Both the position numbers and the translations under genes were made by a program. Positions 7,756-61,281 of a stretch of 64,000 nt of DNA are shown in pieces; the stretch's first letter is position 1; the number at the start of each line of letters is the position of its first letter. The notes beneath the pieces were generated by a model. It was not told where the DNA came from. It saw nothing but the letters and a program-made list of their open reading frames with translations, and did no database searches. Origin of the DNA: Mobula hypostoma (Eukaryota). Location of the stretch: positions 116,314,001 to 116,378,000 of the forward strand of contig NC_086107.1 of NCBI RefSeq assembly GCF_963921235.1, given 5' to 3'.

Positions 7756-7817
7756 GTGGGGAGGGAGAGAGAAAGAGACGGACGGGTGTCAGGGAGAGGG
7801 AGGGTGTGTCGGGGAGA

Positions 7818-19300: not shown

Positions 19301-19360
19301 CTCTCCCTCCCCTCTGTCCGACCAATAATTCCCTCTCCTCCGAACCTCTCCCTTCTGTCC
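16355..19360. repeat. Compound pyrimidine-rich minisatellite filling the last TAOK2 intron
   Basis: Shuffled modules ccgaccaacaatcccctcccct / ccaaacctctccctcccctctgt over about 3 kb. Confidence 0.95.
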
Positions 19361-20146: not shown

Positions 20147-20399
20147 CTGCGGGAGAGACACTGGGACGTGAGACTCACACGTAAACCCCCACCCTCACAC
20201 CTTCACAACCCGCCTGTGGGAAGAGGTTCGAGGGGCAGACAGAGGCGAGAGCGAGAGGATGACAGAACGGAGGTGGAAGAGAAGGGGGGAAGGAGGAGAA
20301 GGAAAGGATGGTGGAGGGAGAAGGTGGAGACGGTTGAGAATGGGGTTGAGGGATTTGAAGACGAGGCGGAGGGGGGAGGGGGTAGGGTGAGGGGGGAGG

Positions 20400-26690: not shown

Positions 26691-26974
26691 AATCAGGTTT
26701 AATATCACTGGGGCACGTCTCATAAAATTTATTAACTTACCACAGAACTACAATGCAATACATGATAATATAGTGAAAGAACAATTACAGTAAGTATATC
26801 TACATTAAACATAGTGCAAAAACTGAAATTTTAAAAATTGAGGCAGCATTTATGGGTTCAATGTTCATTTAGGAATCAGATGGCAGAGGAGAAGAAACTG
26901 TTCCTGAATCGCTGAGAGTGTGCCTTCAGGCTTCTGTACCCTCCCAATCACCACCTAAATGCCCCTTCTGATCA

Positions 26975-28590: not shown

Positions 28591-28635
28591 CATGTCTGTT
28601 TAAGGCCCAGGGGCAGCAATAGCAGACAAACGTCA

Positions 28636-38889: not shown

Positions 38890-41073
38890 AACCCATCGGT
38901 TTAACCCCAGCCTAGTTACAACCCACCCGTTTAACCCCAGCCTAATTACAACCCACCCGTTTAACCCCAGCCTAATTACAACCCATCGGTTTAACCCCAG
39001 CCTAATTACAACCCATCGGTTTAACCCCAGCCTAGTTACAACCCACCCGTTTAACCCCAGCCTAATTACAACCCATCGGTTTAACCCCAGCCTAATTACA
39101 ACCCACCCATTTAACCCCAGCCTAATTACAACCCACCCATTTAACCCCAGCCTAATTACAACCCATCGGTTTAACCCCAGCCTAGTTACAACCCACCCGT
39201 TTAACCCCAGCCTAATTACAACCCATCGGTTTAACCCCAGCCTAATTACAACCGATCGGTATAACCCCAGCCTAGTTACAACCCACCCGTTTAACCCCAG
39301 CCTAATTACAACCCATCGGTTTAACCCCAGCCTAATTACAACCCACCCATTTAACCCCAGCCTAATTACAGCCCATCGGTTTAACCCCAGCCTAATTACA
39401 ACCCACACATTTAACCCCAGCCTAATTACAACCCATCGGTTTAACCCCAGCCTAATTACAACCCACACATTTAACCCCAGCCTAATTACAACCCATCGGT
39501 TTAACCCCAGCCTAGTTACAACCCATCCGTTTAACCCCAGCCTAATTACAACCCACCCATTTAACCCCAGCCTAATTACAACCCACCCGTTTAACCCCAG
39601 CCTAATTACAACCCATCGGTTTCACCACAGCCTAATTACAACCCATCGGTTTAACCCCAGCCTAGTTACAACCCACCCATTTAACCCCAGCCTAATTACA
39701 ACCCACCCGTTTAACCCCAGCCTAATTACAACCCATCGGTTTCACCACAGCCTAATTACAACCCATCGGTTTAACCCCAGCCTAATTACAACCCACCTGT
39801 TTAACCCCAGCCTAATTACAACCCATCGGTTTAACCCCAGCCTAATTACAACCCATCCGTTTAACCCCAGCCTAGTTACAACCCACCCGTTTAACCCCAG
39901 CCTAATTACAACCCATCGGTTTAACCCCAGCCTAATTACAACCCACCCATTTAACCCCAGCCTAATTACAACCCATCGGTTTAACCCCAGCCTAATTACA
40001 ACCCACACATTTAACCCCAGCCTAATTACAACCCATCGGTTTAACCCCAGCCTAGTTACAACCCATCCGTTTAACCCCAGCCTAATTACAACCCACCCAT
40101 TTAACCCCAGCCTAATTACAACCCATCGGTTTAACCCCAGCCTAATTACAACCCACCCATTTAACCCCAGCCTAATTACAACCCACCCGTTTAACCCCAG
40201 CCTAATTACAACCCATCGGTTTAACCCCAGCCTAGTTACAACCCATCCGTTTAACCCCAGCCTAATTACAACCCACCCATTTAACCCCAGCCTAATTACA
40301 ACCCACCCATTTAACCCCAGCCTAATTACAACCCATCGGTTTCACCACAGCCTAATTACAACCCATCGGTTTAACCCCAGCCTAATTACAACCCACCCAT
40401 TTAACCCCAGCCTAATTACAACCCACCCATTTAACCCCAGCCTAATTACAACCCATCGGTTTAACCCCAGCCTAATTACAACCCACCCATTTAACCCCAG
40501 CCTAATTACAACCCACACATTTAACCGCAGCCTAATTACAACCCACACATTTAACCCCAGCCTAATTACAACCCATTGGTTTCACCACAGCCTAATTACA
40601 ACCCATCCGTTTAACCCCAGCCTAATTACCACCCATCCGTTTAACCCCAGCCTAATTACAACCCATCCGTTTAACCCCAGCCTAATTACAACCCACCCAT
40701 TTAACCCCAGCCTAATTACAACCCACCCATTTAACCCCAGCCTAATTACAACCCATCGGTTTAACCCCAGCCTAATTACAACCCACCGGTTTAACCCCAG
40801 CCTAATTACAACCCACCCGTTTAACCCCAGCCTAATTACAACCCACCCATTTAACCCCAGCCTAATTGCAACCCACCCATTTAACCCCAGCCTAATTACA
40901 ACCCACCCGTTTAACCCCAGCCTAATTACAACCCATCGGTTTAACCCCAGCCTAATTGCAACCCACCCATTTAACCCCAGCCTAATTACAACCCACCCAT
41001 TTAACCCCAGCCTAATTACAACCCATCGATTTAACCCCAGCCTAATTACAACCCACCCATTTAACCCCAGCCT
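38890..41073. repeat. 30-bp minisatellite (~72 copies)
   Basis: (acccatcggtttaaccccagcctaattaca)n with interspersed variants and no indels. Confidence 0.97.
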
Positions 41074-43814
41074 ACCTCCCAGGACATGCCCTTTTCTCAC
41101 TGTTACCATCAGGTAGGAGGTACAAAAGCCTGAAGGCACACACTCAGCGATTCAGGAACAGCTTCTTCCCCTCTGCCATCCGATTCCTAAATGGACATTG
41201 AAACTTTGGATACTATCTCACTTTTTAAAATGATTATTTCAATTTTTGCACAATTTTTAATTTAACTGTTTAATATAGAATCATGTACGGTGTGATTTAT
41301 TTATTTATTTTTCTGAGGTTTTCACTGTATTGTATTGTAGTGCTGCGCATTACTCAACGTTTGCTGATGATATTAGACCTGATTGTGATGTGTCATCGAG
41401 GATATCTTCATCACTGTGCCTGTGTCCATCACTGAAGACCCTCACCACACTGGACTGGCCCTCTTCTCATCGCTACCATGGGTGAGGAGCTACAGGAGCC
41501 TGAAGAACCACGCTCAGCGATTCAGGAACAGCTTCTTCCCCTCCGCCATCAGATTTCCGGAAGGATAGTGAACCCTTGAACACGGCGTCACTACTGCGCT
41601 CTTATTTTGCAATACTCATTTATTTTATACATTCTTAATTGTAATTTGTAAAAGTTTTATGTATTCTGCTGCATAAAACAACCAATGTCACCTCATCCAG
41701 TGAGCTGGTGATAATAAAGCTGATTCTGACTGTCTTTGTAAAACTCTATTGTATCTCTTTTCTGCTGTGAATGGGAATTCCAGGGTTGTCTCTGACAATG
41801 AACTGAATGTAATATCTGAGTCTCTGGCGAGAGGAATTGACTATGGTCTTCAGGATGGGGACACACACTAGACCCTTTCCTGGGTGTCAATGTCTCTGAA
41901 AATCTACCCTGGGCTCAATCACACCGACGGTATACCAGAGGCCTTCACGGGTACCACCCTCCCTACTGGCAAGGATATCTTACCAGTGTCTCTACTCTCT
42001 CAGGAGAGGCATGTTCCTCACCACAGAAAGCACCCTATCCGCATACTTCACATCTCGGTACAGAGAAAGGTCAGCACATCATGGAATCAAGCGACCCCTC
42101 CACAGACTCTGTCTGCACCTCTCGTTGTCTCAGTAAAGTGGCCAGCGTCATTAAAGACCCTCCCCCCACTCCGGACGTTCCCTCTTCTCCCCACTCCCAT
42201 TGGGCAGAAGTACGTAGCACTGGGCTCAAGGAGTTGTTAGACTATTGCAGAATGCCCTGGAACACCAGTCTCAAGTTAACGTTTTCTGTCTTTAAAACTG
42301 TAGAGATTCACACTGATAAATGAAACAATGCTCCTCTGGACCAAGGTGCACAACACAGTACCTATACCTCACACACAACACATCGTAATATTACCACAAA
42401 CAAATCCACAAATAATAAGGTGCAATTATGACAGTTTACACGACGAGACCTGGGTGTTGGCAGGGAGTTCAGGGAGGAGAAGCTGTTTCCCACCCTAACA
42501 GTCCTTGAACACACACAAAATCCTGGAGGAACTCAACAGGTCAAGCAGCATGAACAGATAGTCCACGTTTCAAGCTGAGACCCTTCTTTGGGACTGAGAA
42601 GGAAGGGGGAAGACGCCAGAATAAAAAGGCAGGGAAGAAGGGAAGGAGGCTAACTGAAGGTGATCGGTGAAGGTAGGTGGGTGGGAAAGGTCAAGGGCTG
42701 GAGAAGAAAGAATCTGACAGGACAGGAGACTGAACCATAGAAGAAAGGGAAGGAGGAGGGGTCCCGGGGGAAGTAATAGGCAAGTGAGAAGAGGTAACAG
42801 GTCTGAGGGGGGAACAGAGGAAGGGGAGGAGGGTGGAAAGGGGAGTTTTTTCCTGGAAGCAGTAATCAATATTTGTACCATCAGGTTGAAGTACCCAGAC
42901 GGAATACAAGGCATTGCTCCTCGACCCTCTGCTTGGCACAAGATGATGTTACTGCTACAGTACCTCCTGCCCTGACAGTAGTGGGTCAACGTGATTGTTA
43001 AGGCCTTGCACCTTCTTGTCTGCCTGCACTGCACTCTCTTTTAACAGTGACACTTTATTCTGCACTCTCTAGTTGCTCTGCCTCAGTGTCTTACGGCCTG
43101 TATAATGATATGATCGGTATGAACAGAGTGCGAGACATTTTTCGCCGTATCTCCATACATGTAACAATAATAAACCAATCTGCCAAATGGCCTCAAGAAG
43201 GCAGCATCCATTACTGAGGCCCTCATCACCCTGGGCATGATCTCTCCTCACTGCTCCCGTCAGGGAAGAGGAACAGGGGTTCAGGAACAGTTTCTTCCCT
43301 TGCACCATCTGATTTCTGCATGAACACCACTGGAATTTGTGGTATTTTTTGGCAGTACTGCTGTTGCATATAATCTACTTCACTACACTTGTCAATGAAA
43401 ACAAACCTGATTCTCATTTAAACGTTGGTGGTGCATGCTGCTCTCAAGTCTAATGTTGTTTCAGACAAAAATGAAGCCCAACTGACCATTTAGCCTCTCC
43501 AGTTAACAAAAGATGATTCTCCCCATAATCATTAGCGTAATCCACCCTGTGATTCTCCCCTTACCAATGAACCTATCAATCTCAGCCTTAAATGCACCCA
43601 AGAATTTGGCTTCCACAGCCACCAACGGCAACAAATTCACCACCCTTCAGCTGAACAAATTCCTCCCTGTCTCCGTTCCAAATGGAGGTCCATTTTTCCT
43701 GAGGCTGTATCATTGGATCATGGTCTTTCCCATTGTTGGAGATATCCTCTCCACATCCACTCTGCCCTTGGTTTTTCAGTGAGACCTGAACCACACATGT
43801 GACATCTGTTCAAA

Positions 43815-44932
43815 GGTGGGTGAGGAGGGAGATTCACTCTGTGTCAGACCCCAGGAGTGTGTGATGGGACAGTGTGGAGGGAGATTCACTCTGTGTCTGA
43901 CCCCGGGAGTGTGTGATGGGACGGTGTGGAGGGAGTTTCACTCTGTGTCTGACCCCGGGAGTGTGTGATGGGACGGTGTGGAGGGAGTTTCACTCTGTGT
44001 CTGACCCCGGGAGTGTGTGATGGGACGGTGTGGAGGGAGATTCACTCTGTGTCTGACCCCGGGAGTGTGTGATGGGACGGTGTGGAGGGAGATTCACTCT
44101 GTGTCTGACCCCGGGAGTGTGTGATGGGACGGTGTGGAGGGAGATTCACTCTGTGTCTGACCCCGGGAGTGTGTGATGGGACGGTGTGGAGGGAGATTCA
44201 CTCTGTGTCTGACCCCGGGAGTGTGTGATGGGACGGTGTGGAGGGAGTTTCACTCTGTTTCTGACCCCGGGAGTGTGTGATGGGACGGTGTGGAGGGAGT
44301 TTCACTCTGTGTCTGACCCCGGGAGTGTGTGATGGGACGGTGTGGAGGGAGTTTCACTCTGTGTCTGACCCCGGGAGTGTGTGATGGGACGGTGTGGAGG
44401 GAGTTTCACTCTGTGTCTGACCCCGGGAGTGTGTGATGGGACGGTGCGGAGGGAGATTCACTCTGTGTCTGACTCCGGGAGTGTGTGATGGGGGGTGTGG
44501 ATGGAGATTCACTCTGTGTCTGACTCCGGGAGTGTGTGAAGGGACGGTGTGGAGGGACATTCACTCTGTGTCTGACCCTGGGAGTGTGTGATGGGACGGT
44601 GTGGAGGGAGCTTCACTCTGTGTCTGACCCCGGGAGTGTGTGATGGGACGGTGTGCAGCGAGCTTCACTCTGTGTCTGACCCCGGGAGTGTGTGATGGGA
44701 CGGTGTGGAGGGAGATTCACTCTGTGTCTGACCCCGGGAGTGTGTGATGGGACGGTGTGCAGCGAGCTTCACTCTGTGTCTGACCCCGGGAGTGTGTGAT
44801 GGGACGGTGTGGAGGGAGATTCACTCTGTGTCTGACCCCAGGAGTGTGTGATGGGACGGTGTGGAGGGAGATTCACTCTGTGTCTGACCCCAGGAGTGTG
44901 TGATGGGACGGTGTGGAGGGGTTTCACTCTGT
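43815..44932. repeat. 52-bp minisatellite array A (upstream of MAZ)
   Basis: (ctctgtgtctgaccccgggagtgtgtgatgggacggtgtggagggagattca)n, about 21 copies. Confidence 0.97.
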
Positions 44933-45059
44933 CTCTCTCCCCCTTACTCCCTCCGTTGTCCTCAACCTCTCCCTGCTTTCCTTCCCCTCTCTCCACCCCG
45001 CCCCTGCCTCTATCTCTGTCTATCCTCCCTCTATCCCCACTCTCTCCTTCCGTCTCCCT

Positions 45060-45616: not shown

Positions 45617-45884
45617 GTGAGACCCAGGGGAGCGGGGGGCGGGGCTACGGGGGAGGGGGGAGTGGGAGGGCGAGGCCACGGGGTGGGGTGGGAGAGGGGA
45701 ATGGGCGTGGCCACACGGTATATGGGGGAGGGGAGGGGCTAGGGGTAACGGGCGTGATTAGAGGGGGGCTATACTGGGCGCAGCTCCGTGGGTGGGGGTC
45801 TGTAGGGAATGGGCGTGGCTTCGGGGTAAGGGGCGGGGCTACATGAACGGGGTCGGGGGAAGGGACATTACGGCGATAAGGGGT

Positions 45885-46175
45885 GGGGCTAATGGGAGGG
45901 GGCAGGAGTGTGGGGTGGGGCTAGAGGGAGGGGGCAGGGGTGTGGGGTGGGGCTAGAGGGAGGGGGCAGGGTGTGGGGTGGGGCTAGAGGGAGGGGGCAG
46001 GGTGTGGGGTGGGGCTAGAGGGAGGGGGCAGGGGTGTGGGGTGGGGCTAGAGGGAGGGGGCAGGGTGTGGGGTGGGGCTACAGGGAGGGGGCAGGGTGCC
46101 GGGTGTGGCTAGAGGGAGGGGGCTGGGGTGTGGGGTGGGGCTACAGGGAAGGGGCAGGGGTGTGGGGTGGGGGTA
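45885..46175. repeat. ~31-bp G-rich tandem repeat in MAZ intron 1
   Basis: (ggggtggggctagagggagggggcagggtgt)n, about 9 copies. Confidence 0.9.
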
Positions 46176-47025
46176 GAGGAGTGAGGCTTTGTGAGGAGGG
46201 ACAGAACCACCAGAGTGGGGCAGGACTACCAGCGAGCCTGCAGAAGGGGTTGGGGGGGTGAGTGAGGGTCTGAGGGGTGAGCATGGCCCACCAGCCCATG
46301 GGGATTTAAGGGAGGGTGGGTGTGGCCTGAGTTGTTGGGGCACTGTGATTGGCTGCTGGGCTCGAAGGGGTGGGAACTGAGCCATGAGTGACACGGTAGG
46401 TGACCAGTGCGAGAGGCAGAGACACTGGTGACTGACGGGCTCGGGATGACATATTGGGTACTGGCATTTCAGGAACTGTGGGGCGCTGGATTAGCCTGTT
46501 CGAACTTCAACAGGGTTGTCTATCATCGGACTGGGGTAAAGGAATGAAAGGTTAGGGATCAAAGGTCCAGAGATGAGCATTTGAGCATTTAGGGTCAAGG
46601 GGGCAGCGGGTGGAAGGTTGAGAGGTGAGGGTGAACAGTAAAGTGTAGGATTGAAGTGAGGGGTCAAATGTCAGAGGTGAGGGGTTAGGCAGTGAGGACG
46701 AAGGCAGAGATGTGGAGAGCAGAGAGGCTGGCGTCAGGGGCGAGGGTGCAGGGTACGAGGGTTAAGATGTGTAGGGGTTGAAGGGTGGAGAGGACAGTTG
46801 AGGGGTTAGGGGTCAGTGGGTCGAGATGAGAAGCTGAGAGGTGGGGTGCTCAAGGATTAAGAGGCTGGTGTTGAGAGATTTGGCTCCTGGCGGGGTTGAG
46901 GAGTGGGAGGTGTTGGGGGGTGGTGAAATGTAAAAATGCCACTCACTCCTCCATATTGCTCCTTGTATCCCTCACCCCACCTTTCTCCCCAAATCCCTTC
47001 ACCCCCCACTCCCGATACACAACAG

Positions 47026-48611: not shown

Positions 48612-49246
48612 GCAGAGGGAACTTCACTCCGTGTCTGACCCCGGGAGTGTGTGATGGGACAGTGTGGAGGGAGATTCACTCTGTGTCTGACCCCGGGAGT
48701 GTGTGATGGGATGGTGTGGAGGGAGATTCACTGTGTGTCTGACCCCGGGAGTGTGTGATGTGATGTTGTAGAGGGAGATTCACTCTGTGCTGATCCCGGG
48801 ATTGTGTGATGGGACGGTGTGGAGGGAGATTCACTCTGTGTCTGACCCCGGGAGTGTGTGATGGGACGGAACTTCACTCCGTGTCTGACCACGGGAGTGT
48901 GTGATGGGACGGTGTGGAGGGAGTTTCACTCTGTGTCTGACCGCGGGAGTGTGTGATGGGACGGTGTGGAGGGAGATTCACTCTGTGTCTGACCCCGGGA
49001 GTGTGTGATGGGACGGTGTGGAGGGAGATTCACTCTGTGTCTGACCCCGGGAGTGCGTGATGGGACGGTGTGGAGGTAGATTCACTCTGTGTCTGACCCC
49101 GGGAGTGTGTGATGGGACGGTGTGGAGGGAGATTCACTCTGTGTCTGACCCCGGGAGAGTGTGATGGGACGGTGTGGAGGGAGCTTCACTCTGTGTCTGA
49201 CCCCGGGAGTGTGTGATGGAGGGTGTGTCACTCTGTGTCTGACCCC
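48612..49246. repeat. 52-bp minisatellite array B, left part (MAZ intron 4)
   Basis: Same unit as 43815-44932; starts just after the exon 4 donor. Confidence 0.95.
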
Positions 49247-49361
49247 TTTTTTTTTTGTTTTTGTTTTTATACAAAATTCTTTATTACAAATGTCGGTGCT
49301 ATACAATATTTACAAACCCAGTGACTAACATATTTACTACACTACAAACAGACAATACATC

Positions 49362-52300
49362 TTAAACCAATATATTGCCATCCTCATCAATGATGGCATT
49401 TACACCCCGCGGAGCCCAACGGTCCCGGAACACCTCTACGGTCGCCGTGGACTGTGCGTATTCCTTTTCAATGTTCACCCGGGCACGAACATACCCCCTA
49501 AACATAGCCAGGCAGTCCACCCGGGGAGAACCTCCTGCCACCCTTTTCCAGGAGCCCCGGATGGCAATTTTCGCCAGCCCCAGGAGCAAGTTGACAAGGA
49601 CATCCTCATCCCTCTGTGCCCCCCTCCTTACTGGATGACCATATATAAATAGGGTGGGACTGAAATGCAACCAGAAGGCGAGAAGCAGCCCACGCAAAAA
49701 CGCGAAAAGGGGCTGCAGCCTCACACACTCCGTGTACATGTGGTACACCGTCTCCTCCAGCCCGCAGAAGTGACACGCGGCTGGGAGATCCGTGTACAGA
49801 CTAAAGAACTTATTGCAGGGCACCGCTTTATGCAGCACCCTCCAGCCGAGATCCCCAAGGTGCATGGGGAGGACTCCCTTGTAAAGGGACTGCCATTGGG
49901 GACCCCCCCTCACCTCCAGGTGGAAAGACCGACCGCCATGGCGTGTCGGGACGGTGGACAAAGGCTAGGAAGTGGAGGGTGTGGAGCAGCAGCCCATAAA
50001 GGTACCTCCTGCCTGCATCCCTGAATGGGATTGTGGGTGTCGATGAAAGACGGCTCAAGTTGTGCGGATTCGTCTCTCGGGTAAGGCTGCGGGGCCTGGG
50101 CCCGACGAGCAGCTCAGCTTGAGTCGATCCACACACCTGAGCCGCACCGACATCCGCTGAGGTAGGGCAAGGGTCGGCCAGGACCCCGCCCTCTGCCAGA
50201 GGAGGGGATTCCCGGCCTGAGGCAACCATGTTCCAGACTCTCAGTAGGTCCTGATAGAAGCCGGGCAGCCTCTGCAAAGCAGCACGGCTGACGCCTGCCG
50301 GTGGTAGCTGCATATCTTCGTGAAGGCAGCAGCCCCTCCGGAGGAAGAAAGTCGCCAACACGTGCCACCTGGGAGGGCGCTCGGCGTACAGGAATCTCTG
50401 CAGAGTCCTGAGGCGGAGAGCCGCCAGTCGTGTGCGTACACACACCAGCGACTGTCCGCCCTCTCCTACTGGGAGACTCAGAACCGCTGCAGAGACCCAG
50501 TGTTTCCTGTTTCCCCAGAAGAAGTCCACCAGCTTCCTCTGCATTCTCGCAACAAAAGGGGCAGGGGGGGCCAAGGTGACCATCCGGTACCACAACACGG
50601 AGGCCACCAGCTGGTTTATGACCACCACCCTGCCTCGATAGGAAAGCACCCTGAGAAGGCCTGACCAGCGCCCTAGCCGGGCCATGACCTTTGTCTCCAG
50701 GTCCTGCCAGTTCGCCAGCCAGGTCTCCCCAGAAGGACTCAGGTAGACTCCCAGATAGAGAAGACGTCTGGTGCTCCACTCAAAAGCTCTCATCTCCTCC
50801 GGCAGGGAGTCCACCTGCCACTGGCCGACTAAGAGTCCGGAACATTTCGCCCAGTTGATCCTGGCGGAGGATGCCGCCGAGAAAACATCTTGGCACTCGC
50901 GCATCCTCCGCAGGTCACAGGGGTCTGTCATCATGAGGAGTACGTCATCGGCGTAGGCCGAGAGGACGACCCTCATGTCCGGTTCGCGCAGAACCAGACC
51001 TGTCAGCCTTCGCCGAAGAAGGCCGAGGAATGGCTCGACACAGATCGCATACAGTTGACCGGACATGGGGCACCCTTGACGCACTCCTCTTCGGAAGTGG
51101 ATAGGTCCTGTCAGTGATCCGTTGATCTTAACTAGGCACTCTGCGGCAGAGTACAGGAGCCGAACTCGGGCCACAAAGTGTGGTCCGAGCCCAAAAGCCT
51201 GCAGGGTGCCCAGCAGGAAACTGTGGTCCACCCGGTCAAACGCCTTCTCCTGGTCAAGAGAAAGAAACGCTGCCGGGGTCCCAGTCTCCTGGAGCAGGTG
51301 GATCAGGTCCCGTACTAGGTGGACATTGTCCTGGATGGAGCGGCCCGGGACCGTGTAAGATTGGTCAGGATGGACCACCTGTCCAATTACCGAACCCAGA
51401 CGGTTGGCCATTGCCCGGGCGAAGATCTTGTAGTCCGCGCACAAGAGGGAGACCGGCCGCCAGTTCTTTAGCAGGCGGAGGTCTCCCTTCTTGGGCAGTA
51501 GGACCACAACAGCTCTTCGCCATGAGAGGGGCATTTCTCCGGTGGCTAGGCTCTCCCCTAGGACAAGGCTGTAATCATCCCCCAGGACATCCCAAAAAGC
51601 CTGATAAAACTCAACACTCAGTCCATCCAAACCAGGGGACTTGCCCCTCCGGAGTTGCCGAAGGGCAGTGGACAGCTCCTCCCGAGTCAGGGGGGCATCC
51701 AGACGCACTGCATCCTCTGGACTGACCTTAGGCAAATCCTTCCAGACCTCATTGCACGCCTCCGCATTTGACGGATCAGGCGAGAATAAGGACCGATAGA
51801 ATGAACGGACCTCGTTGTTAATTCCATCAGGGTCCGTGATGGAGGAGCCATCGGCAGCCAGCAATTCCACTAGCTGCTTTTGAACTCCCCGCCACCTCTC
51901 CAACGAGTAGAAGAAGGTTGAGCCACGGTCCAAATCCTGCAGCATTTGGATCCGTGACCTCACGTACGCACCTCGGGACTGCTGAAGCTGCAAGTCCCTT
52001 AGTGCGTCCTCCTTCTCCTGGTATTCCTGCCATAGCTGCTGGTCTCCAGTGGTCGGACCGAGGCGGGACTCCAGGTCAAGCAACGCTCTCTCAAGCTGCT
52101 CAACCTCAGAGCCCCGCCTCTTTGTCGACCCCCTAGTGTACTCCCGACATAAAAACCGGATGTGGGCTTTGCCCACATCCCACCATAGCCGTAGGGAGCA
52201 GAACTCTCTCCGCCTCTCCTTCCAGGAGACCCAGAACGCTCGGAACGAATCCCGGAAACGGCTGTCCTCCAGCAGCCGGTTGTTAAAATGCCAATACCCG

Positions 52301-53025
52301 GATCCCACCCGAGGGTGTAGTGGAATAAATTCCATCCACACAAGGTGATGATCCGAGCACGACACTGGCCGCATGGAGGACGCCGACACGCGGGAGGCGT
52401 AGGCCCGAGAGATGTAAATGCGGTCTATCCTGGAACCTCCTTCTCTAGACCTTCTCGAGAAGGCGCTAGAGTTGGGGTGAAAATTCCGCCAGCTGTCCAC
52501 CAAGTCAAAGGAGCCGACTAGCTCCTTTAACTTTTTTGCTGATGCTGGGTCGCGTTGGAGGCCCGAACGATCCTCCGCCTCGAGGGTACAATTGAAATCT
52601 CCCCCGAGGATGACGCAGTCCCCAGGATCGATGGAGCTCAGCAGGGTGGACAGCTGACAGAATAGGCACGTCTGCATCACACCGCGCCTGGGAGCGTACA
52701 CATTGATAAAATGCAATGGTACGCCATCCAGGCGCACAACCAGGTGGAGCAGACGGCCGGGCACAACGTCTTGGACCCTTTCAATTACTGGCTGGAAGGT
52801 CGAGGCCAACAGGATCGCCACCCCGCTAGAAATGGAGCTGAGGTGGCTCATGTAGACCCCGCCCTGCCACTCCAGGAGCCAAGCAGACTCGTCCCCAGGG
52901 ATGGTATGGGTTTCCTGCAGGAAACTCACCGTATACCGCCCATCCCTGAGGACTGAGAGATTGTTATGCCTGCGAAGAGGACCCCTGCTGCCGTTTACAT
53001 TGAGACTAGCTATGGTAAGCTTCAT
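49362..53025 (-). CDS. Tx1 ORF2 (APE endonuclease + reverse transcriptase + C-terminal Cys/His motif); one +1 frameshift at the 49903-49909 homopolymer; ~1220 aa if corrected
   Basis: SLNVNG, FLQETH, GGDFN, SRIDRIY, SDH; PGLDG, WRPVSLL, LDQEKAFDRV, RQGCPMS, YADD; CHFCGLEETVYHMYTEC. Confidence 0.93.
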
Positions 53026-53037
53026 GGCGGGAGCACA

Positions 53038-55093
53038 CTAGGTCTCAGCAGCTGCGCCCATTTCGGTGAGAGCGGAGGCGCCTTCCACCACACTGTCCGG
53101 AAAGAAAGCAAGGATACCTTTTGCTTTCCGGGCTCGAGCGGTACCAGCAACACCCTGTGACCCGCCATCCCCCGTAGGAGCGAGGCTGCTTCTCCCTCTG
53201 ATGTCCCTTACTAGGTCATCCAGGAAAGATTTTAGTTGCCGTCTGTCGTTCCCCGACACCGCATTCCTCTTTCCCTTTCCCTTTCGTCTGAGGATGACTC
53301 GCAGGGACCTCACCAGCCTCGGCATGCTGGGCCAGCAAAGCGAGGCTAGCTGAGGCCGGTGCTTGGCACCCTCAGAGGTGAGAATGAAATGCTTAATTTC
53401 CTCTACAGGTATCAATGGGGATTTCTCAGGAGGGGTGAGGATGTCCATTGTTTCACTATCGAAAGAGTCCCCCTCCAACCCGTCACTGCAGACAGAATCC
53501 CCATCGGCCTCCCCGCATGTTCCAATAGATGGCTGCGCCTGCGACCCACACCGCGCAGCGGGCACCTCGCTCTTACCTGCCTGCTCCACCGTCGCATCAG
53601 CCTCATCCACATTTGCGACAGTGGAGAGACAATCCCCAGGGACTCCCTGCAAGTCATTTATTGCTGGGGTCGATGTGCACAGAATATCGTCCTCCCTAGG
53701 GGGCAGGCATAGAGGGGAACCCGGCACCTTTGGTCCAAGGGATTCATAAGCCGCCAGGTGCTGAGAATGAGAGAGCTTTGCCTCGTCTCCTCTTACACTA
53801 TTCGGTACACTGGCCTCCAGAGAGGCGCTGACTTGTAGGTCCTGGGTGGAGGCCTCCAGGGCTGCCTCATTTGTGCAAACAGGCCTATCACAAGCTTTTT
53901 GCACAACCACACCATCTACCCCAGGACTGGTGGTTACATCTGAGGACTCAGGTTTAGAACCAACCCCTACCCGGATTCCCACCCCTTCCTGGGACTCCCC
54001 CGCATCTACATCCCCTGCCCTCTTGCGGGAACGTTCCCTTCTCCTCTTCACGCTGGAGGAGCACACAGGTGCAGGCTTCACCGATGGGGCGGCGCCTTCT
54101 GTTTCCATCGCCCCGTCTGCTTGCGCACCTCCCCGAGCCCCACGCTCCACTTCAGACGAAATGGGTGTGAGCTCTGCGGCCTCAAAGGCCCGCTTCTTAC
54201 TATGTTTGGATTTCCCCTTTGCCTTCTTACTCCGCACAGACTTCACCCCGTCCCCCACCTGAACCACAGGGAGAGGAGCAGGGACCGACCCAACCGTAGA
54301 AGTAGGGACAGGGGTAGGGGTAGGGGCAGGGTGAGGGGCTGGGGCAGGATCACGGGCGGGGGCAGGGTCAGATGCAGGTGCAGGCGCACGCGCAGGAGTA
54401 GGATCAGGGGCAGAGGTAGCTGCGGCACTGGTGCCCGAAGTGGGCTCCCTCGGGTTCCGGGCGGCAGGACAGTCCCTCCGAAAGTGCCCCACCTCCCTGC
54501 ACGCATGGCACCGTGGGCGCTCCGAGCTCCAGTACACCTGATAATCTACTCCCTCGTGCCGGACAGTAAAGCGGCCCTCAACATCGTCCTCCCTTTCCAG
54601 CTGCATGAAAACCTGACGCCGGAAAGAGATTACGGTGCGGAGGGTGCGTCTCTTAAATTTGTGTCGGATGGCAGTGATCTCCGACCTTACTTGCCCTAAA
54701 CGGGCCAGTGGGGGAAGCAAGTCCTCATTTGGAATGAAAGGCTTAACATGCCCAAGCACGATACGTTGCGTGGGGGGCCGTCACCAGCTCCATAGGTAAA
54801 AAGATGTTGTCCACCGTGACTCCCCTGCTTAGGGCCCGGTGCACTAGCTCTTCATTCACCAGATAGAACACCGCCTTTCCGAACTCCTTCTCGGTGGCCA
54901 GAATACCACCTTTCCCCACAAGGTCCTCCATTGCCTCCGTACACTTTTCTAGTGTCATTCCAGGGCGCAAAATACATTGCACCCCACGTTCCACCTTCAC
55001 CGACCAAAACAGGGCGTTGTCCGAGGCCGGGGAGGCAGCCGCCCTTGCGTAACTCCCCGAAGGCCCGCGACTCCCTGGAGACCGGTCCGGCAT
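53038..55093 (-). CDS. Tx1 ORF1 (RRM-like N-terminus, CCHC zinc knuckle, long low-complexity tail); one +1 frameshift at the 54772-54777 homopolymer; ~684 aa if corrected
   Basis: SYARAAA..KAVFYL..TAP/TQRIVLGHVKPFIPNEDL..RRQVFM..CHACREVGHFRRDC; stops 12 nt before the ORF2 ATG. Confidence 0.88.
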
Positions 55094-55614
55094 GCTGGCG
55101 CTCTTTCCAGTCCGAGAATTTTGCGGCGGTGCCAGTTAGAAGTCCTGGAGCGAGTCGAATAACTGGCCGGGAAAGTTTGCAGTCGACAGTTCCTCGCTGG
55201 CTCGGCGCCAGGAAAGGCTCCGTCGGACTTGCAGAGACCCAGGCCGGGAGAGGCCGAAACGTCCTTCCAGATGCTCCGGCACCGGCACCAACACCGGACG
55301 AAAAATCAGGAAAACAATGGAGGAGGAACGTTGCCCCGATGTCAATGGGGGGAAAACGACGGCGTTTGCCTCCGGTTTTGGAGCGAACCGGCTTACTGGC
55401 GAGTTGCCAGCGGCCGCAGCTGGGAGCTACGCAGTAAGCAGCCGCCAACAAACCCAGTCCAAACCGGCAGCAAAAACTCCACACCGAGCTTCCACGCCAA
55501 CGCCGTCACTCACTCAGTTGTCCAAGAGACTTTTAGAGCCACCTCCAAAGTATTCCACGAACTTTATCCAGTAGTTTTCCTTCGATTTCTCCCAGCTCAG
55601 TCAGCACAGCTCCT

Positions 55615-58440
55615 CTCTGTGTCTGACCCCGGGGGTGTGTGATGGGACGGTGTGGAGGGAGATTCACTCTGTGTCTGACCCCGGGAGGGTGTGATGGGAC
55701 GGTGTGGAGGGAGATTCACTCTGTGTCTGACCCCGGGAGGGTGTGATGGGACGGTGTGGAGGGAGATTCACTCTGTGTCTGACCCCGGGAGGGTGTGATG
55801 GGACGGTGTGGAGGTAGTTTCACTCTGTGTCTGACCCCGGGAGTGTGTGATGGGACGGTGTGGAGGGAGCTTCACTCTGTGTCTGACCCCGGGAGTGTGT
55901 GATGGGACGGTGTGGAGGGAGATTCACTCTGTGTCTGACCCCGGGAGGGTGTGATGGGACGGTGTGGAGGGAGATTCACTCTGTGTCTGACCCCGGGAGG
56001 GTGTGATGGGACGGTGTGGAGGTAGTTTCACTCTGTGTCTGACCCCGGGAGTGTGTGATGGGACGGTGCGGAGGGAGATTCACTCAGTGTCTGACCCCGG
56101 GAGTGTGTGATGGGACGGTGTGGAGGGAGTTTCAGTCTGTTTCTGAACCTGGAATTGTGTGATGGGACGGTGTGGCAGGAGGTTCAGTCTGTGTCTGACC
56201 CCGGGAGTGTGTGATCGGACGGTGTGGAGGGAGCTTCACTCTGTGTCTGACTCGGGGAGTGTGTGATGGGACGGTGTGGAGGGAGTTTCACTCTGTGTCT
56301 GACCCCGGGAGTGTGTGATGGGACGGTGTGGAGGGAGATTCACTCTGTGTCTAACCTTGTGAGTGTGTGATGGGACGGCGTGGAGGGAGATTCACTCTTT
56401 GTCTAACCCTGTGAGTGTGTGATGGGACGGCGTGGAGGGAGATTCACTCTGTGTATGACCCTGGGAGTGTGTGATCGGACGGTGTGGAGGGAGATTCACT
56501 CTGTGTCTGACCCCGGGAGTCTGGAGGGATTTCCTCTCTGTGACTTACCCCGGGAGTGTGTGATGGGATGTGCGTCACTCTGTATCTGACCCTGGGAGTT
56601 TGTGATGGGACGGTGTGCAGGGAGATTCACTCTGTGCCTGATGCCGAGAGTGTATGATGGTACGGCGTGGAGGGAGATTCACTCTGTGTCTAACCCCGGG
56701 AGTGTGTGATGGGACGGCGTGGAAGGAGATTCACTCTGTGCCTGACCTCGGGAGTGTGTGATCGGACGGTGTGGAGGGAGGTTCACTCTGTACCTGACCC
56801 CGGGAGTGTGTGATGGGACGGTGTGCAGGGAGCTTCACTCTGTGTCTGACCCCGGGAGTGTGTTATTAGACGGTGTGGAGGGAGTTTCTCTCTATGTCTG
56901 ACCCACGGAGTGTGTGATGGGACGGTGTGGAGCGAGGTTCACTCTGTGCCTGACCCCTGTAGTGTGTGATGGGACGGTGTGGGGGGAGCTTCACTCTGTG
57001 TCTGACCCCGGGAGTGTGTGATGGGACGGTGGGGAGGGAGATTCACTCTTTGTTTGACCCCGGGAGTGTGTGATGTTTCGGTGGGGAGGGAGATTCACTC
57101 TGTGTCTGACCCCGGGAGTGTCTGATGGTTCGGTGTGGAGGGAGCTTCACTCTATGTCTGACCCCGGGAGTCTGTGGTGGGACGGTGTGGAGGGAGTTTC
57201 TCTCTGTGTCTGACCCCGGGAGTGTGTGATGGGACTTTGTGGAGCGAGTTTCACTCTGTGCCTGACCCCGGGAGTGTGTGATGGGACGGTGTGCAGGGAG
57301 CTTCACTCTGTGTCTGACTCCGGGAGTGTGTGATGGGACGGCGTGGAGGGAGATTCACTCTGTGCCTGACCCCGGGAGTGTGTGATCGGACGGTGTGGAG
57401 GGAAGTTCACTCTGTATCTGACCCCGGGAGTGTGTGATGGGACGGCGTGGAGGGAGTTTCACTCTGTGCCTGACCCCGTGAGTGTGTGATGGGATGGCGT
57501 GGAGGGAGGTTCAATCTGTGTCTGACCCCGGGGGTGTGCGATGGGACGGTGTGGAGGGACCTTTACCCTGTGCCTGACCCCGGGGGTGTGCGATGGGGCG
57601 GTGTGGAGGGAGATTCACTCTGTGTCTGAGCCCGGGAGTGTGCGATGGGACGGTGCGGCGGGAGTTTCACTCTGTGTCTGAGCCCGGGGGTGTGCGATGG
57701 GGCGGTGCGGAGGGAGTTTCACTCTGCGTCTGAGCCTGGGGCTGTGCGATGGGGCGGTGCGGAGGGAGTTTCACTCTGCGTCTGAGCCCGGGGGTGTGCG
57801 ATGGGGCGGTGCGGAGGGAGATTCACTCTGCGTCTGAGCCCGGGGGTGTGCGATGGGGCGGTGCGGAGGGAGATTCACTCTGCATCTGAGCCCGGGGCTG
57901 TGCGATGGGGCGGTGCGGAGGGAGATTCACTCTGCGTCTGAGCCCGGGGGTGTGCGATGGGGCGGTGCGGAGGGAGATTCACTCTGCGTCTGCCCCCGGG
58001 GGTGTGCGATGGGGCGGTGCGGAGGGAGATTCACTCTGCGTCTGAGCCCGGGGGTGTGCGATGGGGCGGTGCGGAGGGAGATTCACTCTGCGTCTGAGCC
58101 CGGGGGTGTGCGATGGGGCGGTGCGGAGGGAGATTCACTCTGCGTCTGAGCCCGGGGGTGTGCGATGGGGCGGTGCGGAGGGAGATTCACTCTGCGTCTG
58201 AGCCCGGGGGTGTGCGATGGGGCGGTGCGGAGGGAGATTCACTCTGCGTCTGAGCCCGGGGGGTGTGCGATGGGGCGGTGCGGAGGGAGATTCACTCTGC
58301 GTCTGAGCCCGGGGGTGTGCGATGGGGCGGTGCGGAGGGAGATTCACTCTGCGTCTGCCCCCGGGGGTGTGCGATGGGGGGTGTGGAGGGAGATTCTCTC
58401 TGTGTCTGCCCCCGGGGGTCTGTCACTCTTTGTGTCTGAG
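55615..58440. repeat. 52-bp minisatellite array B, right part, with a GC-shifted distal domain
   Basis: Same unit; diverged at 56100-57500; homogeneous GC-richer variant at ~57600-58400. Confidence 0.95.
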
Positions 58441-59455: not shown

Positions 59456-59759
59456 AAGAGAGGGGAGCGGGCCTGGGGTGCTGATGGGGGAGCGTGAGAG
59501 AGGTGGCGAGGGGAAGTGGGCAGAGTGTAACGGTCGGTGAGAGAGTCGGGAGGGGAGGTGGTGGTTATGGGGTGAAGAGAGACCAGGCGGGGGGGGGAGA
59601 TGGTGGATGGAGTGGGGTGTGCAGTGTATGGGGGTTGAGGGGGGAGAGTGTGAGAGGGGATCGGGGAGGTAGACACGCATCTGAGGCATTGATAGTTAAT
59701 GGGGGAGAGGGTTGTTGTGAAAGGGGGGAGTGTGAAGGGAAAAGGTGGAATATGATAGC

Positions 59760-60930
59760 ATGAGTGGAGGGAGGGGGAGTGAGGGAGGATGGAGAGTGTT
59801 TGAGGAGTGAGTGTGGGGGTGAGATGGGGAGGGGGAGTGAGGGAGGATGGAGGGGGAGTGAGGGAGGATGGAGAGGTGGAGTGAGTGTGGGGTGAGATGG
59901 AGATGGGGGAGGGGGGAGCGAGGGAGGATGGAGAGTGTTTGAGGAGTGAGTGTGGGGGTGAGATGGAGAGGGGGAGTGAGGGAGGATGGAGAGGTGGAGT
60001 GAGTGTGGGGTGAGATGGAGATGGGGAACGAGGGAGTGAGGGAAGATGGAGAGGGTGGGGAATGAGTGTTTGAGGAGTGAGTGTGGGGGCGAGATGGGGA
60101 GGGGGAGTGAGGGAGGATGGAGAGGTGGAGTGAGTGTGGGGTGAGATGGAGATGGAGAGGGGGGAGCGAGGGAGGAGGAGAGTGGGAGGTGAGATGGGGA
60201 GGGGGAGTGAGGGAGGATGGAGAGTGTTTGAGGAATGAGTGTGGGGGTGAGATGGGGAGGGGGAGTGAGGGAGGATGGAGAGTGTTAGGAGTGAGTGTGG
60301 GGGTGAGATGGAGAGGGGGAGTGAGGGAGGATGGAGAGTGTTTGAGGAGTGAGTGTGGGGGTGAGATGGGGAGGGGGAGTGAGGGAGGATGGAGAGTGTT
60401 TGAGGAGTGAGTGTGGGGGTGAGATGGGGAGGGGGAGTGAGGGAGGATGGAGAGTGAGGAGTGAGTGTGGGGGTGAGATGGGGAAGGGGAGTGAGGGAGG
60501 ATGGAGAGTGTTTGAGGAGTGAGTGTGGGGGTGAGATGGGGAGGGGGAGTGAGTGTGGGGTGAGATGGAGATGGGGAGGGGGGAGCGAGGGAGGAGGAGA
60601 GTGGGAGGTGAGATGGGGAGGGGGAGTGAGGGAGGATGGAGAGTGTTAGGAGTGAGTGTGGGGGTGAGATGGGGAGGGGGAGTGAGGGAGGATGGAGAGT
60701 GAGGAGTGAGTGTGGGGGTGAGATGGGGAGGGGGAGTGAGGGAGGATGGAGAGAGGAATGAGTGTGGGGGTGAGACGGAGAAGGGGAGTGAGGGAGGATG
60801 GAGAGTGTTTGAGGAGTGAGTGTGGGGGTGAGATGGGGAGGGGGAGTGAGGGAGGATGGAGAGGTGGAGTGAGTGTGGGGTGAGATGGAGATGGGGGAGA
60901 GGGGAGCGAGGGAGGAGGAGAGTGGGAGGT
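59760..60930. repeat. Compound GA/GT-rich tandem repeat in the MAZ 3' region
   Basis: Modules gagtgagtgtgggggtgagatggggagggg / gagtgagggaggatggagagt. Confidence 0.9.
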
Positions 60931-61281
60931 GGTTGTGGAGTGACTGGGGTGATCACTCAGTGACGGTTCATCTGTTCCCTTGCTGTCTGGGGAAGGAGGG
61001 GCTGGGTGGCTCCCTTGTCCAGGGGTTGGTGGGTCAGAGCCCTGTCTCTGCCAGGGACGGGGGAAAAGATGGGTCAGTGGAGGGAGGTTCCTGCTGCGAT
61101 TGTGCTTTTATTCTGGGGCAGGGGAGGGTGGGATCACACTATGCACTGGAGGAGACAGTGGCTACAGGAGGGCTTGCACTGTGTGCAGGAGAGGGGCCGA
61201 GGGCTCAGGGGAGGGAGTCGTGTTTCTGCATCATCCCAATACGGTTCGCCTGGATGTTGCTTCAAACCTGGGGTATTTTTA

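What the first reader, a model, noticed from the sequence alone, without database searches (positions are those of the whole stretch)
49231..55630. Candidate minisatellite-targeting Tx1 retrotransposon: full-length element inserted at the CCCC^GGG site of a 52-bp repeat
Seen: a complete two-ORF APE-RT element sits inside a 52-bp tandem array with an exact 16-bp TSD (ctctgtgtctgacccc) taken from the repeat unit. The T-tract of the tail is joined directly after ...gacccc, so the priming nick fell between CCCC and GGG and there is no T-rich target like the L1 TTTT/AA site. Established: many Tx1-clade families are target-specific (Tx1L in a DNA transposon, Keno in U2 snRNA genes, Dewa in tRNA arrays, Kibi/Koshi in microsatellites). 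Inference: this may be an undescribed family whose endonuclease recognises this dispersed minisatellite, using intronic arrays as a renewable safe harbour. One copy cannot prove specificity.
Basis: partly seen in the sequence, partly recalled or inferred. Interest (0 to 1): 0.85.

Follow-up and report, generated by a model that had tools for sequence, protein, structure and literature searches.

The report
Minisatellite-targeting Tx1 retrotransposon family
A young jumping gene of the Tx1 group lands, in about half of its copies, at one exact spot of a 52-base tandem repeat; this behaviour is already known for Tx1 elements, here seen in a new family with a new target.

Summary
The element is real. 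It is a 6.37-kb two-ORF APE-RT LINE on the minus strand (49247-55612), inside a 52-bp array. Its ORF2 is 52% identical to Xenopus Tx1 ORF2. The window copy has two frame breaks, neither shared by other copies.

Target preference is confirmed genome-wide. Of 100 sampled 3' ends, 54 join their T-tail at ...CCC(C/T)^GGGAG of the 52-bp unit, all in one orientation. The array is about 0.07% of the assembly. At locus level this is 41 of 82 clusters, p<=1e-59 even if the array were 1% of the genome. Specificity is partial: 45 of 100 copies lie elsewhere, often in other minisatellites and at sites that loosely resemble the target.

The "exact 16-bp TSD" is misread. The 5'-side copy belongs to the element:
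- It is the canonical 15-mer in 30 of 31 full-length array insertions, while the local target copy is canonical in only 16 of 31.
- It is also attached to all 11 full-length copies that lie outside arrays, as 8-66 nt of unit-like sequence.

The RNA therefore seems to carry a target-like 5' leader, much as some R2 elements do. Full-length copies are far commoner on target (31/54) than off target (5/45).

Verdict: new member of a known kind (target-specific Tx1 families). Interest is moderate.

The parts
48615..49246 (+). Left part of the 52-bp array. It ends in the target half-site ...CTCTGTGTCTGACCCC. The priming nick lies between 49246 and 49247.
   Evidence: TRF; sequence. The same junction phase is seen in 54 of 100 copies.
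49247..49270 (-). A-rich tail of the element, read as TTTTTTTTTTGTTTTTGTTTTTAT on the + strand.
   Evidence: Tails across copies have a median of 11 nt and a range of 4-28.
49271..49361 (-). 3' UTR.
   Evidence: Its 29-mer end occurs 278 times in the genome at <=3 mismatches.
49362..49964 (-). C-terminal part of ORF2, out of frame with the main ORF2. It holds a CX2C...H...C motif with a weak zf-RVT match.
   Evidence: PF13966, E 0.0013, below the cut-off; Tx1 alignment stops at residue 1037. The frame break lies between about 49,860 and 49,915. At ~49,903 the window differs in length by one letter from 48 of 50 locus rows; the other 2 rows are the window itself.
49828..53025 (-). ORF2 main frame, 1065 aa: APE endonuclease (residues 6-226) and reverse transcriptase (residues 511-761).
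   Evidence: Pfam; 52% identity to Xenopus Tx1 ORF2.
53038..54780 (-). ORF1 main frame with a CCHC zinc knuckle.
54743..55093 (-). N-terminal piece of ORF1 in another frame. The frame break is near 54,772.
   Evidence: Contigs of 4 runs differ from the window in length by one letter at 54772.
55094..55612 (-). 5' UTR, ending (on the + strand) in ...GTCAGCACAGCTC.
   Evidence: The 29-mer at this end occurs 123 times in the genome at <=2 mismatches.
55613..55640 (-). Target-like 5' leader carried by the element: CT plus unit positions 1 to ~26. It contains the right-hand '16-bp TSD' (55615-55630). The outer limit cannot be read inside an array.
   Evidence: The adjacent 17-mer is identical in 81 of 100 copies. 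A leader is present on all 11 full-length off-target copies. Contigs of X1-X4 bridge the 5' end out to 55633-55644.
55615..58423 (+). Right part of the 52-bp array, about 53 units.
   Evidence: TRF.
43819..44936 (+). Array of the same 52-bp unit (21.5 copies) with intact target sites and no insertion.

Best explanation
This is one copy of a young Tx1-clade LINE family. The family has about 280 3' ends and about 123 5'-complete copies, and copies are ~99% identical to the window copy. It inserts by target-primed reverse transcription, with a strong but not absolute preference for one site of a dispersed 52-bp minisatellite.

Shown:
- The cDNA-priming nick falls at 5'-...GACCC(C/T)^GGGAGTGTG...-3' on the window's + strand.
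- The short A-tail is copied with no complementarity to the target.
- The 3' junction keeps this phase even in variant units.

That stretch spans the nick site, so the apparent 16-bp TSD of full-length copies is copied from the RNA.

Inferred:
- The APE domain, perhaps with other parts of ORF2p, recognises a C-rich 5' side and a GGAG/GTGTG-rich 3' side.
- After first-strand synthesis, the leader-derived 3' end of the cDNA anneals to the target next to the nick and primes the second strand. This would give uniform 5' junctions and mostly full-length copies on target.
- Off target, joining relies on chance microhomology and mostly gives 5'-truncated copies.
- The leader arises because transcription starts, or the RNA is processed, ~24-27 nt upstream of ...GAGCTG, inside the unit-like sequence.
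For: Clade.

Sample. A 31-mer at the 3' end gives 169 genome hits at <=1 mismatch. I examined 100 of them: all 28 exact hits plus the first 72 of the 141 one-mismatch hits in contig order.

3' junctions:
- 50 of 100 lie right after ...CTGTGTCTGACCC(C), in forward orientation.
- 4 of 100 lie in a variant unit (...AACTGTCCCTGCCC^), at the same place relative to GGGAG.
- 1 of 100 lies in the array in reverse orientation.
- 45 of 100 lie elsewhere.
- Collapsing hits closer than 50 kb leaves 82 clusters, 41 of them on target, on 15 contigs.

Background. The 32-nt unit core has 46,746 hits at <=3 mismatches in 3.476 Gb, which is ~2.4 Mb or 0.07%. None of 20 random 1-kb loci holds the core. The binomial p for 41 of 82 is 2e-106 at 0.07% and 3e-59 at 1%.

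Leader:
- I examined 100 of the 123 5' ends, on 31 contigs. 81 of 100 are followed by the identical 17-mer CTCTCTGTGTCTGACCC.
- All 11 full-length copies that leave the array or lie outside arrays still carry 8, 9, 20, 23, 24, 24, 24, 27, 28, 39 and ~60-66 nt of unit-like sequence before unrelated DNA.
- In 31 on-target 3'/5' pairs, the 5'-side 15-mer is canonical in 30, the target-side 15-mer is canonical in 16, and the two differ in 15.

Full-length share: 31 of 54 on target against 5 of 45 off target (Fisher p 2e-6).

Off-target sites look like relaxed targets. The base before the tail is C in 28 of 42 (p 5e-5). Contexts include gatcc^tgggag, cagcc^tggag and cagcttt^aggagag.

Five of 100 5' ends are followed, after a 17-18-nt leader, by the tail of another copy. 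This fits re-use of the site held in the leader.

A diverged subfamily, 84% identical, sits in the same arrays with the same kind of junction.

Precedent: R2 RNAs keep up to 36 nt of 28S at their 5' end, with uniform 5' junctions attributed to annealing of the cDNA (abstract of PMC3774820).
Against: - 45 of 100 copies are off target, so this is a preference, not strict specificity.
- No nicking assay exists and there is no RNA evidence. The transcription start and the role of the leader are inferred from DNA copies only.
- No known ribozyme was found at the 5' end (Rfam, none at E<=1), and the 5' region does not fold better than shuffles (z -0.71).
- Four 5'-truncated array copies start their flank at unit phases 1, ~50, 15 and 18, so the position of the second-strand cut is not settled. 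A true ~16-bp stagger may exist: L056 shows a 15/16 repeat, and the off-target pair L004/L180 shows a TSD of 16-18 bp.
- The array may be under-represented in the assembly. Summed word depth over the array in four runs is about 2,000-5,000 times that over the element (the tool warns this is not a copy number).
- Only 100 of 169 (3') and 100 of 123 (5') places were examined. Some copies inside arrays may have been copied by unequal exchange.
- The pairing missed the 23 unlisted 5' ends.
Confidence: 0.75

Rival explanations
1. Chance: an ordinary, non-specific L1-like element happened to land in an abundant array.
For: The window is rich in this array, about 4.5 kb of 64 kb. A single copy proves nothing.
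Against: 54 of 100 sampled copies are at one phase and in one orientation, against an array share of ~0.07%. p<=3e-59 even at a 1% share. 54 of the 55 array insertions share phase and orientation.
Confidence: 0.01
2. Targeting is driven mainly by something other than a sequence-specific endonuclease. Candidates are RNA-target homology (the 5' leader, or occasional 3' read-through) and a general affinity for minisatellite DNA or chromatin. The endonuclease would contribute only a short motif such as AYYC^G.
For: - The leader is identical to the target.
- Full-length copies are 10-fold enriched on target.
- Off-target flanks are tandem-periodic in 11 of 42, against 0 of 20 random loci (p 0.012).
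- L057 shows GACCC-T8-GACCC-T9, as expected from a read-through RNA.
- The off-target consensus is short.
Against: - The 3' junction is phase-exact, although the A-tail has no homology to the target.
- On-target copies with no listed 5' end (23 of 54), and the clearly truncated L056, use the same nick.
- The unit holds other AYYC sites (e.g. GATTC^A) that were used in 0 of 54 on-target copies.
- Xenopus Tx1L endonuclease is a sequence-specific nickase in vitro (passages of PMC1950540).
Confidence: 0.2
3. The on-target copies were multiplied mostly by unequal exchange or segmental duplication of arrays that already held an element, not by repeated targeted insertion.
For: There are local clusters and head-to-tail pairs: C40:81.09 Mb has 3 copies 1.76 kb apart, and there are clusters on C12 at 106.6-106.7 Mb, on C80 and on C28. 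100 places collapse to 82 clusters.
Against: - 41 on-target clusters more than 50 kb apart lie on 15 contigs. 5' ends lie on 31 contigs, in 73 array clusters.
- The target-side 15-mers differ between loci; 15 of 31 are non-canonical, in several distinct variants.
- Tail lengths differ.
- Copies are ~99% identical across chromosomes.
Confidence: 0.04
4. The 52-bp array is derived from the element's own 5' end, as monomer-type 5' UTR repeats. The 'target' and the 'leader' would then share ancestry, and elements would insert into each other's 5' regions.
For: The leader is identical to unit positions 1 to ~27. 86 of 100 5' ends run on into an array.
Against: - There are at least 46,746 units against 123 5' ends.
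- Arrays exist without elements (43819-44936).
- The left flanks are arrays too, with local variants.
- The unit has no similarity to the rest of the element beyond <=13-nt chance matches.
Confidence: 0.08

Closest known systems
Tx1L of Xenopus laevis (Tx1 clade)
   Same: - Two ORFs; ORF2 has an N-terminal APE domain plus RT. It is 52% identical over 961 aa.
- Tx1L inserts at one site of a repeated host sequence.
- Its endonuclease is reported as a sequence-specific nickase (PMC1950540 passages; PMC4494074 introduction passage).
   Different: - The target is a 52-bp minisatellite, not the Tx1D DNA transposon.
- The beta-B6/B5 hairpin region is 4 residues shorter and differs in sequence (FSR-RSREG---GSRIDRIY here; FTYVRVRDGHVSQSRIDRIY in Tx1).
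- Only about half of the copies are on target.
- The original Tx1L papers were not held, so junction details could not be compared.
Other target-preferring Tx1 families: Keno (U2 snRNA genes), Kibi (TC)n, Koshi (TTC)n, crocodilian Tx1-Mar, and families marked 'Sat, satellites' in Kojima 2015 Fig. 3
   Same: The same clade-wide habit of preferential insertion into multicopy or repetitive targets, including satellites (PMC4494074: introduction passage, section 15 and Fig. 3 legend).
   Different: Different host lineage and target. The figure itself and Repbase were not visible to me, so I cannot say which satellite-targeting families exist or how close they are. No tree with these families was built.
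R2 elements whose RNA keeps 28S sequence at the 5' end
   Same: Target sequence sits at the RNA's 5' end, and 5' junctions are uniform. In R2 this is attributed to annealing of the first-strand cDNA to the target (abstract of PMC3774820). Here 81 of 100 junction 17-mers are identical.
   Different: R2 uses a restriction-like endonuclease and a single ORF, is co-transcribed with rRNA, and is cut out by an HDV-like ribozyme. Here the endonuclease is APE-type, no ribozyme was found, and co-transcription was not shown.
TRAS1/SART1 telomeric-repeat LINEs of Bombyx (R1 clade)
   Same: APE-type LINEs aimed at a short tandem repeat. From recall only, TRAS1 transcription starts in the upstream telomeric repeats.
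   Different: Different clade and target. The TRAS1 transcription paper was not held, so this comparison comes from memory, not from a call.

Membership tests
Tx1 clade of non-LTR retrotransposons | ORF2 with an N-terminal APE-type endonuclease followed by reverse transcriptase | tested here: met
   PF03372 at residues 6-226 (E 2e-18) and PF00078 at residues 511-761 (E 2.6e-38). Motifs SLNVNG, LQETH, GGDFN, SDHH and YADD are visible.
Tx1 clade of non-LTR retrotransposons | RT/ORF2 groups with Tx1L rather than with L1 proper or other clades | tested here: met
   The best named hit of 320 is Xenopus Tx1 ORF2 (E 0; 52% over 961 aa; 991 bits). Human L1 ORF2p scores 274 bits and R2 scores <=80 bits. 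This rests on similarity only; no tree with reference families was built.
Tx1 clade of non-LTR retrotransposons | ORF1 with CCHC zinc knuckle(s) (feature recalled, not taken from a call) | tested here: met
   PF00098, E 1.3e-4, 22.3 bits against a cut-off of 20.8.
Target-specific (site-preferring) LINE | Independent copies joined to the same target sequence at the same nucleotide and in the same orientation, far above the target's share of the genome | tested here: met
   54 of 100 copies, or 41 of 82 clusters, against ~0.07%. 54 of 55 array insertions share one orientation.
Target-specific (site-preferring) LINE | Strict specificity, with nearly all copies in the target, as in R2 and as reported for Tx1L | tested here: not met
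   45 of 100 3' ends are off target. Among 5'-complete copies, 11 of 100 are off target.
Target-specific (site-preferring) LINE | The endonuclease nicks the target sequence specifically | not testable with these tools
   Needs a nicking assay with the recombinant APE domain.
R2-like use of a target-derived 5' leader | Target sequence is part of the inserted copy even outside the target | tested here: met
   11 of 11 full-length copies outside arrays carry 8-66 nt of unit-like sequence. The 5'-side 15-mer is canonical in 30 of 31 pairs, while the local target copy is canonical in 16 of 31.
R2-like use of a target-derived 5' leader | Self-cleaving ribozyme at the 5' end, or co-transcription with the target | tested here: inconclusive
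   No Rfam family at E<=1 in 49000-56000. Fold z-score -0.71. No RNA holder was listed.

The most novel reading that the evidence does not exclude
An APE-type (Tx1) LINE has built a copy of its own target site into the 5' end of its RNA. The first-strand cDNA can then anneal across the nick and prime the second strand. This is the R2 solution, reached independently and without a recognisable ribozyme. It would explain three things at once: the pseudo-TSD, the identical 5' junctions, and the ten-fold excess of full-length copies on target. It would also mean that homing has two separable parts, a nick motif read by the protein and a leader read by base pairing.
Probability: 0.45. Interest if true: 0.65.

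Novelty: new member of a known kind. Interest (0 to 1): 0.5.

Why it matters
- It offers a young family with about 120 full-length copies and a defined target of about 30 bp. Such a family is a convenient natural system for two questions: how APE-type LINE endonucleases reach long-sequence preference, and how the poorly understood second half of LINE integration is completed.
- It shows that a 'perfect TSD' inside a tandem array can be an illusion created by sequence carried on the element. This matters for automated TE annotation.
- It documents a LINE that lives mainly in minisatellites of what is probably a cartilaginous fish. There it can both use and reshape arrays, through head-to-tail insertions and pieces of array transduced to new loci.

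Tried and rejected
- RNA evidence: no RNA holder was listed. The four best runs are of guessed kind and are kept as contigs, so they cannot show a start, a strand or a level.
- Rfam scan of 49000-56000: no match at E<=1. Fold of the leader plus 5' UTR: not better than shuffles.
- A 10-bp inverted repeat joins the leader and the first bases of the element, but it is not kept in the 84% subfamily copy L032. I dropped it as a mechanism.
I worked from short flanks instead, so most off-target copies have only one junction.
- The unit has no similarity to the inside of the element.
- Earlier findings of this scan: none for this genome or this sequence.
- Literature: no paper holds Tx1 + retrotransposon + satellite + shark. 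A looser search on L1-Tx1 with elasmobranch terms listed nothing relevant among the 15 shown. Christensen 2000, Garrett 1989 and Takahashi 1999 are not held. Figures and supplementary figures of PMC4494074 were not seen and may name satellite-targeting Tx1 families.
- Long ORFs elsewhere in the window: 9 of 9 have no Pfam match. I could say nothing about genes or introns.
Full report
**What is at the coordinates.**
The window's + strand reads ...cactctgtgtctgacccc (to 49246), then a T-tract (49247-49270). About 6.3 kb follows, ending in ...gtcagcacagctc (55612), then ct (55613-55614), then ctctgtgtctgacccc (55615-55630), and on into a 52-bp array.

TRF finds the 52-bp array at 48615-49227 and 55615-58423. 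A third, uninterrupted block lies at 43819-44936.

On the minus strand lie four frames:
- a 1065-aa frame with Exo_endo_phos and RVT_1;
- a 167-200-aa continuation in another frame, with a weak zf-RVT match;
- a 522-580-aa ORF1 with a CCHC knuckle;
- a 116-aa upstream piece, again in another frame.

So the element is full length but has two frame breaks, near 54,772 and between about 49,860 and 49,915. At both places the window differs in length by one letter from other copies:
- At ~49,903 it differs from 48 of 50 locus rows; the other two rows are the window itself.
- At 54,772 it differs from contigs of four runs.

Both breaks lie in homopolymer runs, so they could also be assembly errors.

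**Clade.**
Of 320 proteins at E<=1e-20, the best named one is the Xenopus laevis 'Transposon TX1 149 kDa protein'. It is 52% identical over 961 aa, at 991 bits. Human L1 ORF2p scores 274 bits and R2 proteins score <=80 bits.

The closest partial hits are gene models from a stingray (88% over 41% of the query) and a shark (66%). The host is therefore probably a cartilaginous fish; this is an inference.

In the alignment to Tx1, the stretch before SRIDRIY is four residues shorter and differs in sequence. In Tx1L-EN this stretch forms the beta-B6/B5 hairpin with its RDGH tip (passages of PMC1950540).

**Is the target preference real?**
The window's genome is held (3.476 Gb). A 454-nt 3' query gave 677 first-look candidates. 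All 40 scored were 98-100% identical. In 17 of the 30 loci returned, the T-tail was joined to ...CTGACCC(C) or a close variant.

For a sample not chosen by its flanks, I searched a 31-mer at the 3' end. It has 169 hits at <=1 mismatch. The 100 listed are all 28 exact hits plus the first 72 of the 141 one-mismatch hits in contig order. I read their upstream flanks.

Result:
- 50 of 100 join the tail directly to ...CTGTGTCTGACCC(C) of the unit, in forward orientation.
- 4 of 100 join it to a variant unit (...AACTGTCCCTGCCC^), at the same place relative to the following GGGAG.
- 1 of 100 lies in the array in reverse orientation.
- 45 of 100 lie elsewhere.

After collapsing places closer than 50 kb, 41 of 82 clusters are on target, on 15 contigs.

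Background:
- The 32-nt core of the unit has 46,746 hits at <=3 mismatches. That is ~2.4 Mb, or 0.07% of the assembly.
- None of 20 random 1-kb loci holds the core.
- The binomial p for 41 of 82 is 2e-106 at 0.07% and still 3e-59 at 1%.
- Independently of abundance, 54 of the 55 array insertions share one phase and one orientation.

In units that read GACCCT, the T merges with the tail. In 58-nt variant units of the form ...CTGACCCTGTCCC^TGGGAG (L006, L009), the junction sits next to GGGAG, not after GACCC. The nick is therefore best written CCC(C/T)^GGGAG.

**The '16-bp TSD'.**
The 29-mer at the element's 5' end has 123 genome hits at <=2 mismatches. I read the outer flank of 100 of them, on 31 contigs.
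- 92 continue with CT, and 8 with CA.
- 81 continue with the identical 17-mer CTCTCTGTGTCTGACCC.
- 86 run on into at least the first unit. Two of these leave the array after 39 and ~60-66 nt.
- 5 are followed, after a 17-18-nt leader, by the T-tail of another copy.
- 9 pass into unrelated DNA after 8-28 nt.

So all 11 full-length copies that are not embedded in an array still carry unit-like sequence at their 5' end: 8, 9, 20, 23, 24, 24, 24, 27, 28, 39 and ~60-66 nt. I set these boundaries by eye, to about +-2 nt.

Pairing 3' and 5' places 6.07-6.33 kb apart gave 36 full-length copies, 31 of them on target. In those 31 pairs:
- the 15 nt next to the 5' end are canonical in 30;
- the 15 nt of local target next to the tail are canonical in only 16;
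- the two copies differ in 15.

For example, one local target reads ctctttatctcaccc while the 5' side reads ctctgtgtctgaccc. A duplication of the local target would give identical copies. The right-hand 16-mer is therefore copied from the element's RNA. In the window the two copies match only because the local unit happens to be canonical.

What the real target duplication is remains open:
- Four 5'-truncated array copies start their flank at phases 1, ~50, 15 and 18.
- Off-target TSDs range from about 3-5 to 16-18 bp.

**Consequences of the leader.**
On-target copies are full length in 31 of 54 cases, off-target copies in 5 of 45 (odds ratio 10.8, p 2e-6). This is a lower bound, because 23 of the 123 5' ends were not listed. 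Conversely, 89 of 100 5'-complete copies are in arrays or in tandem with another copy, against 54 of 100 of all 3' ends.

This is what one expects if the 3' end of the cDNA can pair with the target beside the nick and prime the second strand. That end is complementary to a leader spanning unit positions 1 to ~27, that is, both sides of the nick.

The same idea was put forward for R2 elements whose RNA keeps up to 36 nt of 28S and whose 5' junctions are uniform (abstract of PMC3774820). Kojima also notes that co-transcription with the target can strengthen target-specific integration (PMC4494074, passage).

I found no ribozyme and have no RNA data. How the leader gets onto the RNA is therefore inferred: an upstream start directed from inside the element, or processing of a longer transcript. 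Leader lengths cluster at 20-28 nt (7 of 11), which favours a fairly fixed 5' end ~24-27 nt outside ...GAGCTG.

**Off-target sites.**
- After removing identical flanks, 42 remain. The base before the tail is C in 28, G in 10 and A in 4; T cannot be scored. p is 5e-5 against an expectation of 0.36. Position -4 is A in 18. This is a relaxed AYYC^ resembling ACCC^.
- Where the other side of the nick is known or can be inferred from the period, several sites read like the target: gatcc^tgggag, cagcc^tggagtgg, cagcttt^aggagag, and ^gagtg at the reverse-orientation site used twice (L025, L038). Others start with tgtgtg.
- 11 of 42 off-target flanks are themselves tandem-periodic (>=70% self-identity at one period). 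None of 100 windows from 20 random loci is (p 0.012 per locus).

The family is thus drawn to minisatellites in general. I cannot tell whether this is by motif, by DNA structure or by chromatin.

**Independence, age and spread.**
- Copies are ~99% identical to the window copy (median 99.03%). Tails are short, with a median of 11 nt.
- A second subfamily, 84% identical in the 5' region, lies in the same arrays with the same kind of junction (L032, L051). The habit is therefore older than the young burst.
- Some local clusters and head-to-tail pairs exist. The 41 on-target clusters, the distinct local unit variants and the differing tail lengths argue against spread by array duplication alone.

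**Comparison with what is known, and novelty.**
Target preference is the rule in the Tx1 clade. Known cases are Tx1L in Tx1D, Keno in U2 genes, Kibi and Koshi in microsatellites, crocodilian families in Mariner and Harbinger elements, and families whose target is given as 'Sat, satellites' (PMC4494074: introduction passage, section 15 and Fig. 3 legend). A Tx1 family aimed at a minisatellite is therefore a new member of a known kind, not a new kind.

I could not check Repbase or Dfam. The searches found no paper describing this family or a Tx1 family in a shark or ray.

The element-borne target leader and its link to full-length insertion is the most interesting part. It has a clear precedent in R2 and, from recall only, in TRAS1.

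**Verdict.**
- Interest is moderate, at 0.5.

Noticed in passing
window 4562-5416, 7812-8114, 16381-19353, 20375-24286, 26971-28599, 38890-41074, 45880-46179, 59743-60943: The window is packed with other, unrelated minisatellites (periods 76, 27, 45, 26/40, 49, 30, 32 and ~58-131 bp). By contrast, 0 of 20 random 1-kb loci of the genome are tandem-periodic. This looks like a minisatellite-rich region.
   Followed up: partly
window 35345-36627: A 93-bp unit is repeated 13.8 times at 100% identity with no indels. This is either a very recent expansion or an assembly artefact.
   Followed up: no
L036, L037, L043-L045, L060-L062, L072, L075, L077, L079, L105, L106 (genome G000): Off-target copies of the family often lie in other minisatellites: 11 of 42 flanks are periodic, against 0 of 20 random loci. 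L043-L045 are three copies 1.76 kb apart, apparently amplified together with their host array.
   Followed up: partly
L057 (G000:C92:177325): The junction reads ...GTCTGACCC-T8-GACCC-T9-element. This is as expected if the template RNA had read 5 nt into the array downstream of its source copy before polyadenylation, a small 3' transduction.
   Followed up: no
L025 (C116) and L038 (C22): Two insertions lie in the same 52-bp unit in the opposite orientation, both at GGTCAGACAC(A)^. This is a secondary site whose downstream side reads (A)GAGTG.
   Followed up: no
L076 (C9:97307505) and L081 (C12:80559317): Two off-target copies on different contigs share nearly the same flank (...GAAAATCCGCCCCC^). 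This suggests a second recurrent site inside some other dispersed repeat.
   Followed up: no
window 55600-55626: On the + strand, GTCAGCACAG ctcctct CTGTGTCTGAC forms a 10-bp inverted repeat with one bulge, joining the element's first bases to the leader. It is not kept in the 84% subfamily copy in L032.
   Followed up: partly
L032:1-1054, L051: A diverged subfamily, ~84% identical in the 5' 1-1.5 kb, occupies the same arrays at the same kind of junction.
   Followed up: partly
protein P0003: A stingray gene model named 'von Willebrand factor A domain-containing protein 7-like' is 88% identical to 41% of this ORF2 and carries an RVT_1 domain. It is probably a gene model that has absorbed a copy of a related element.
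   Followed up: no
runs X5-X9: Runs of two other coded organisms hold 24-34% of the sampled words of the 5' region. Related elements probably exist in other species.
   Followed up: no
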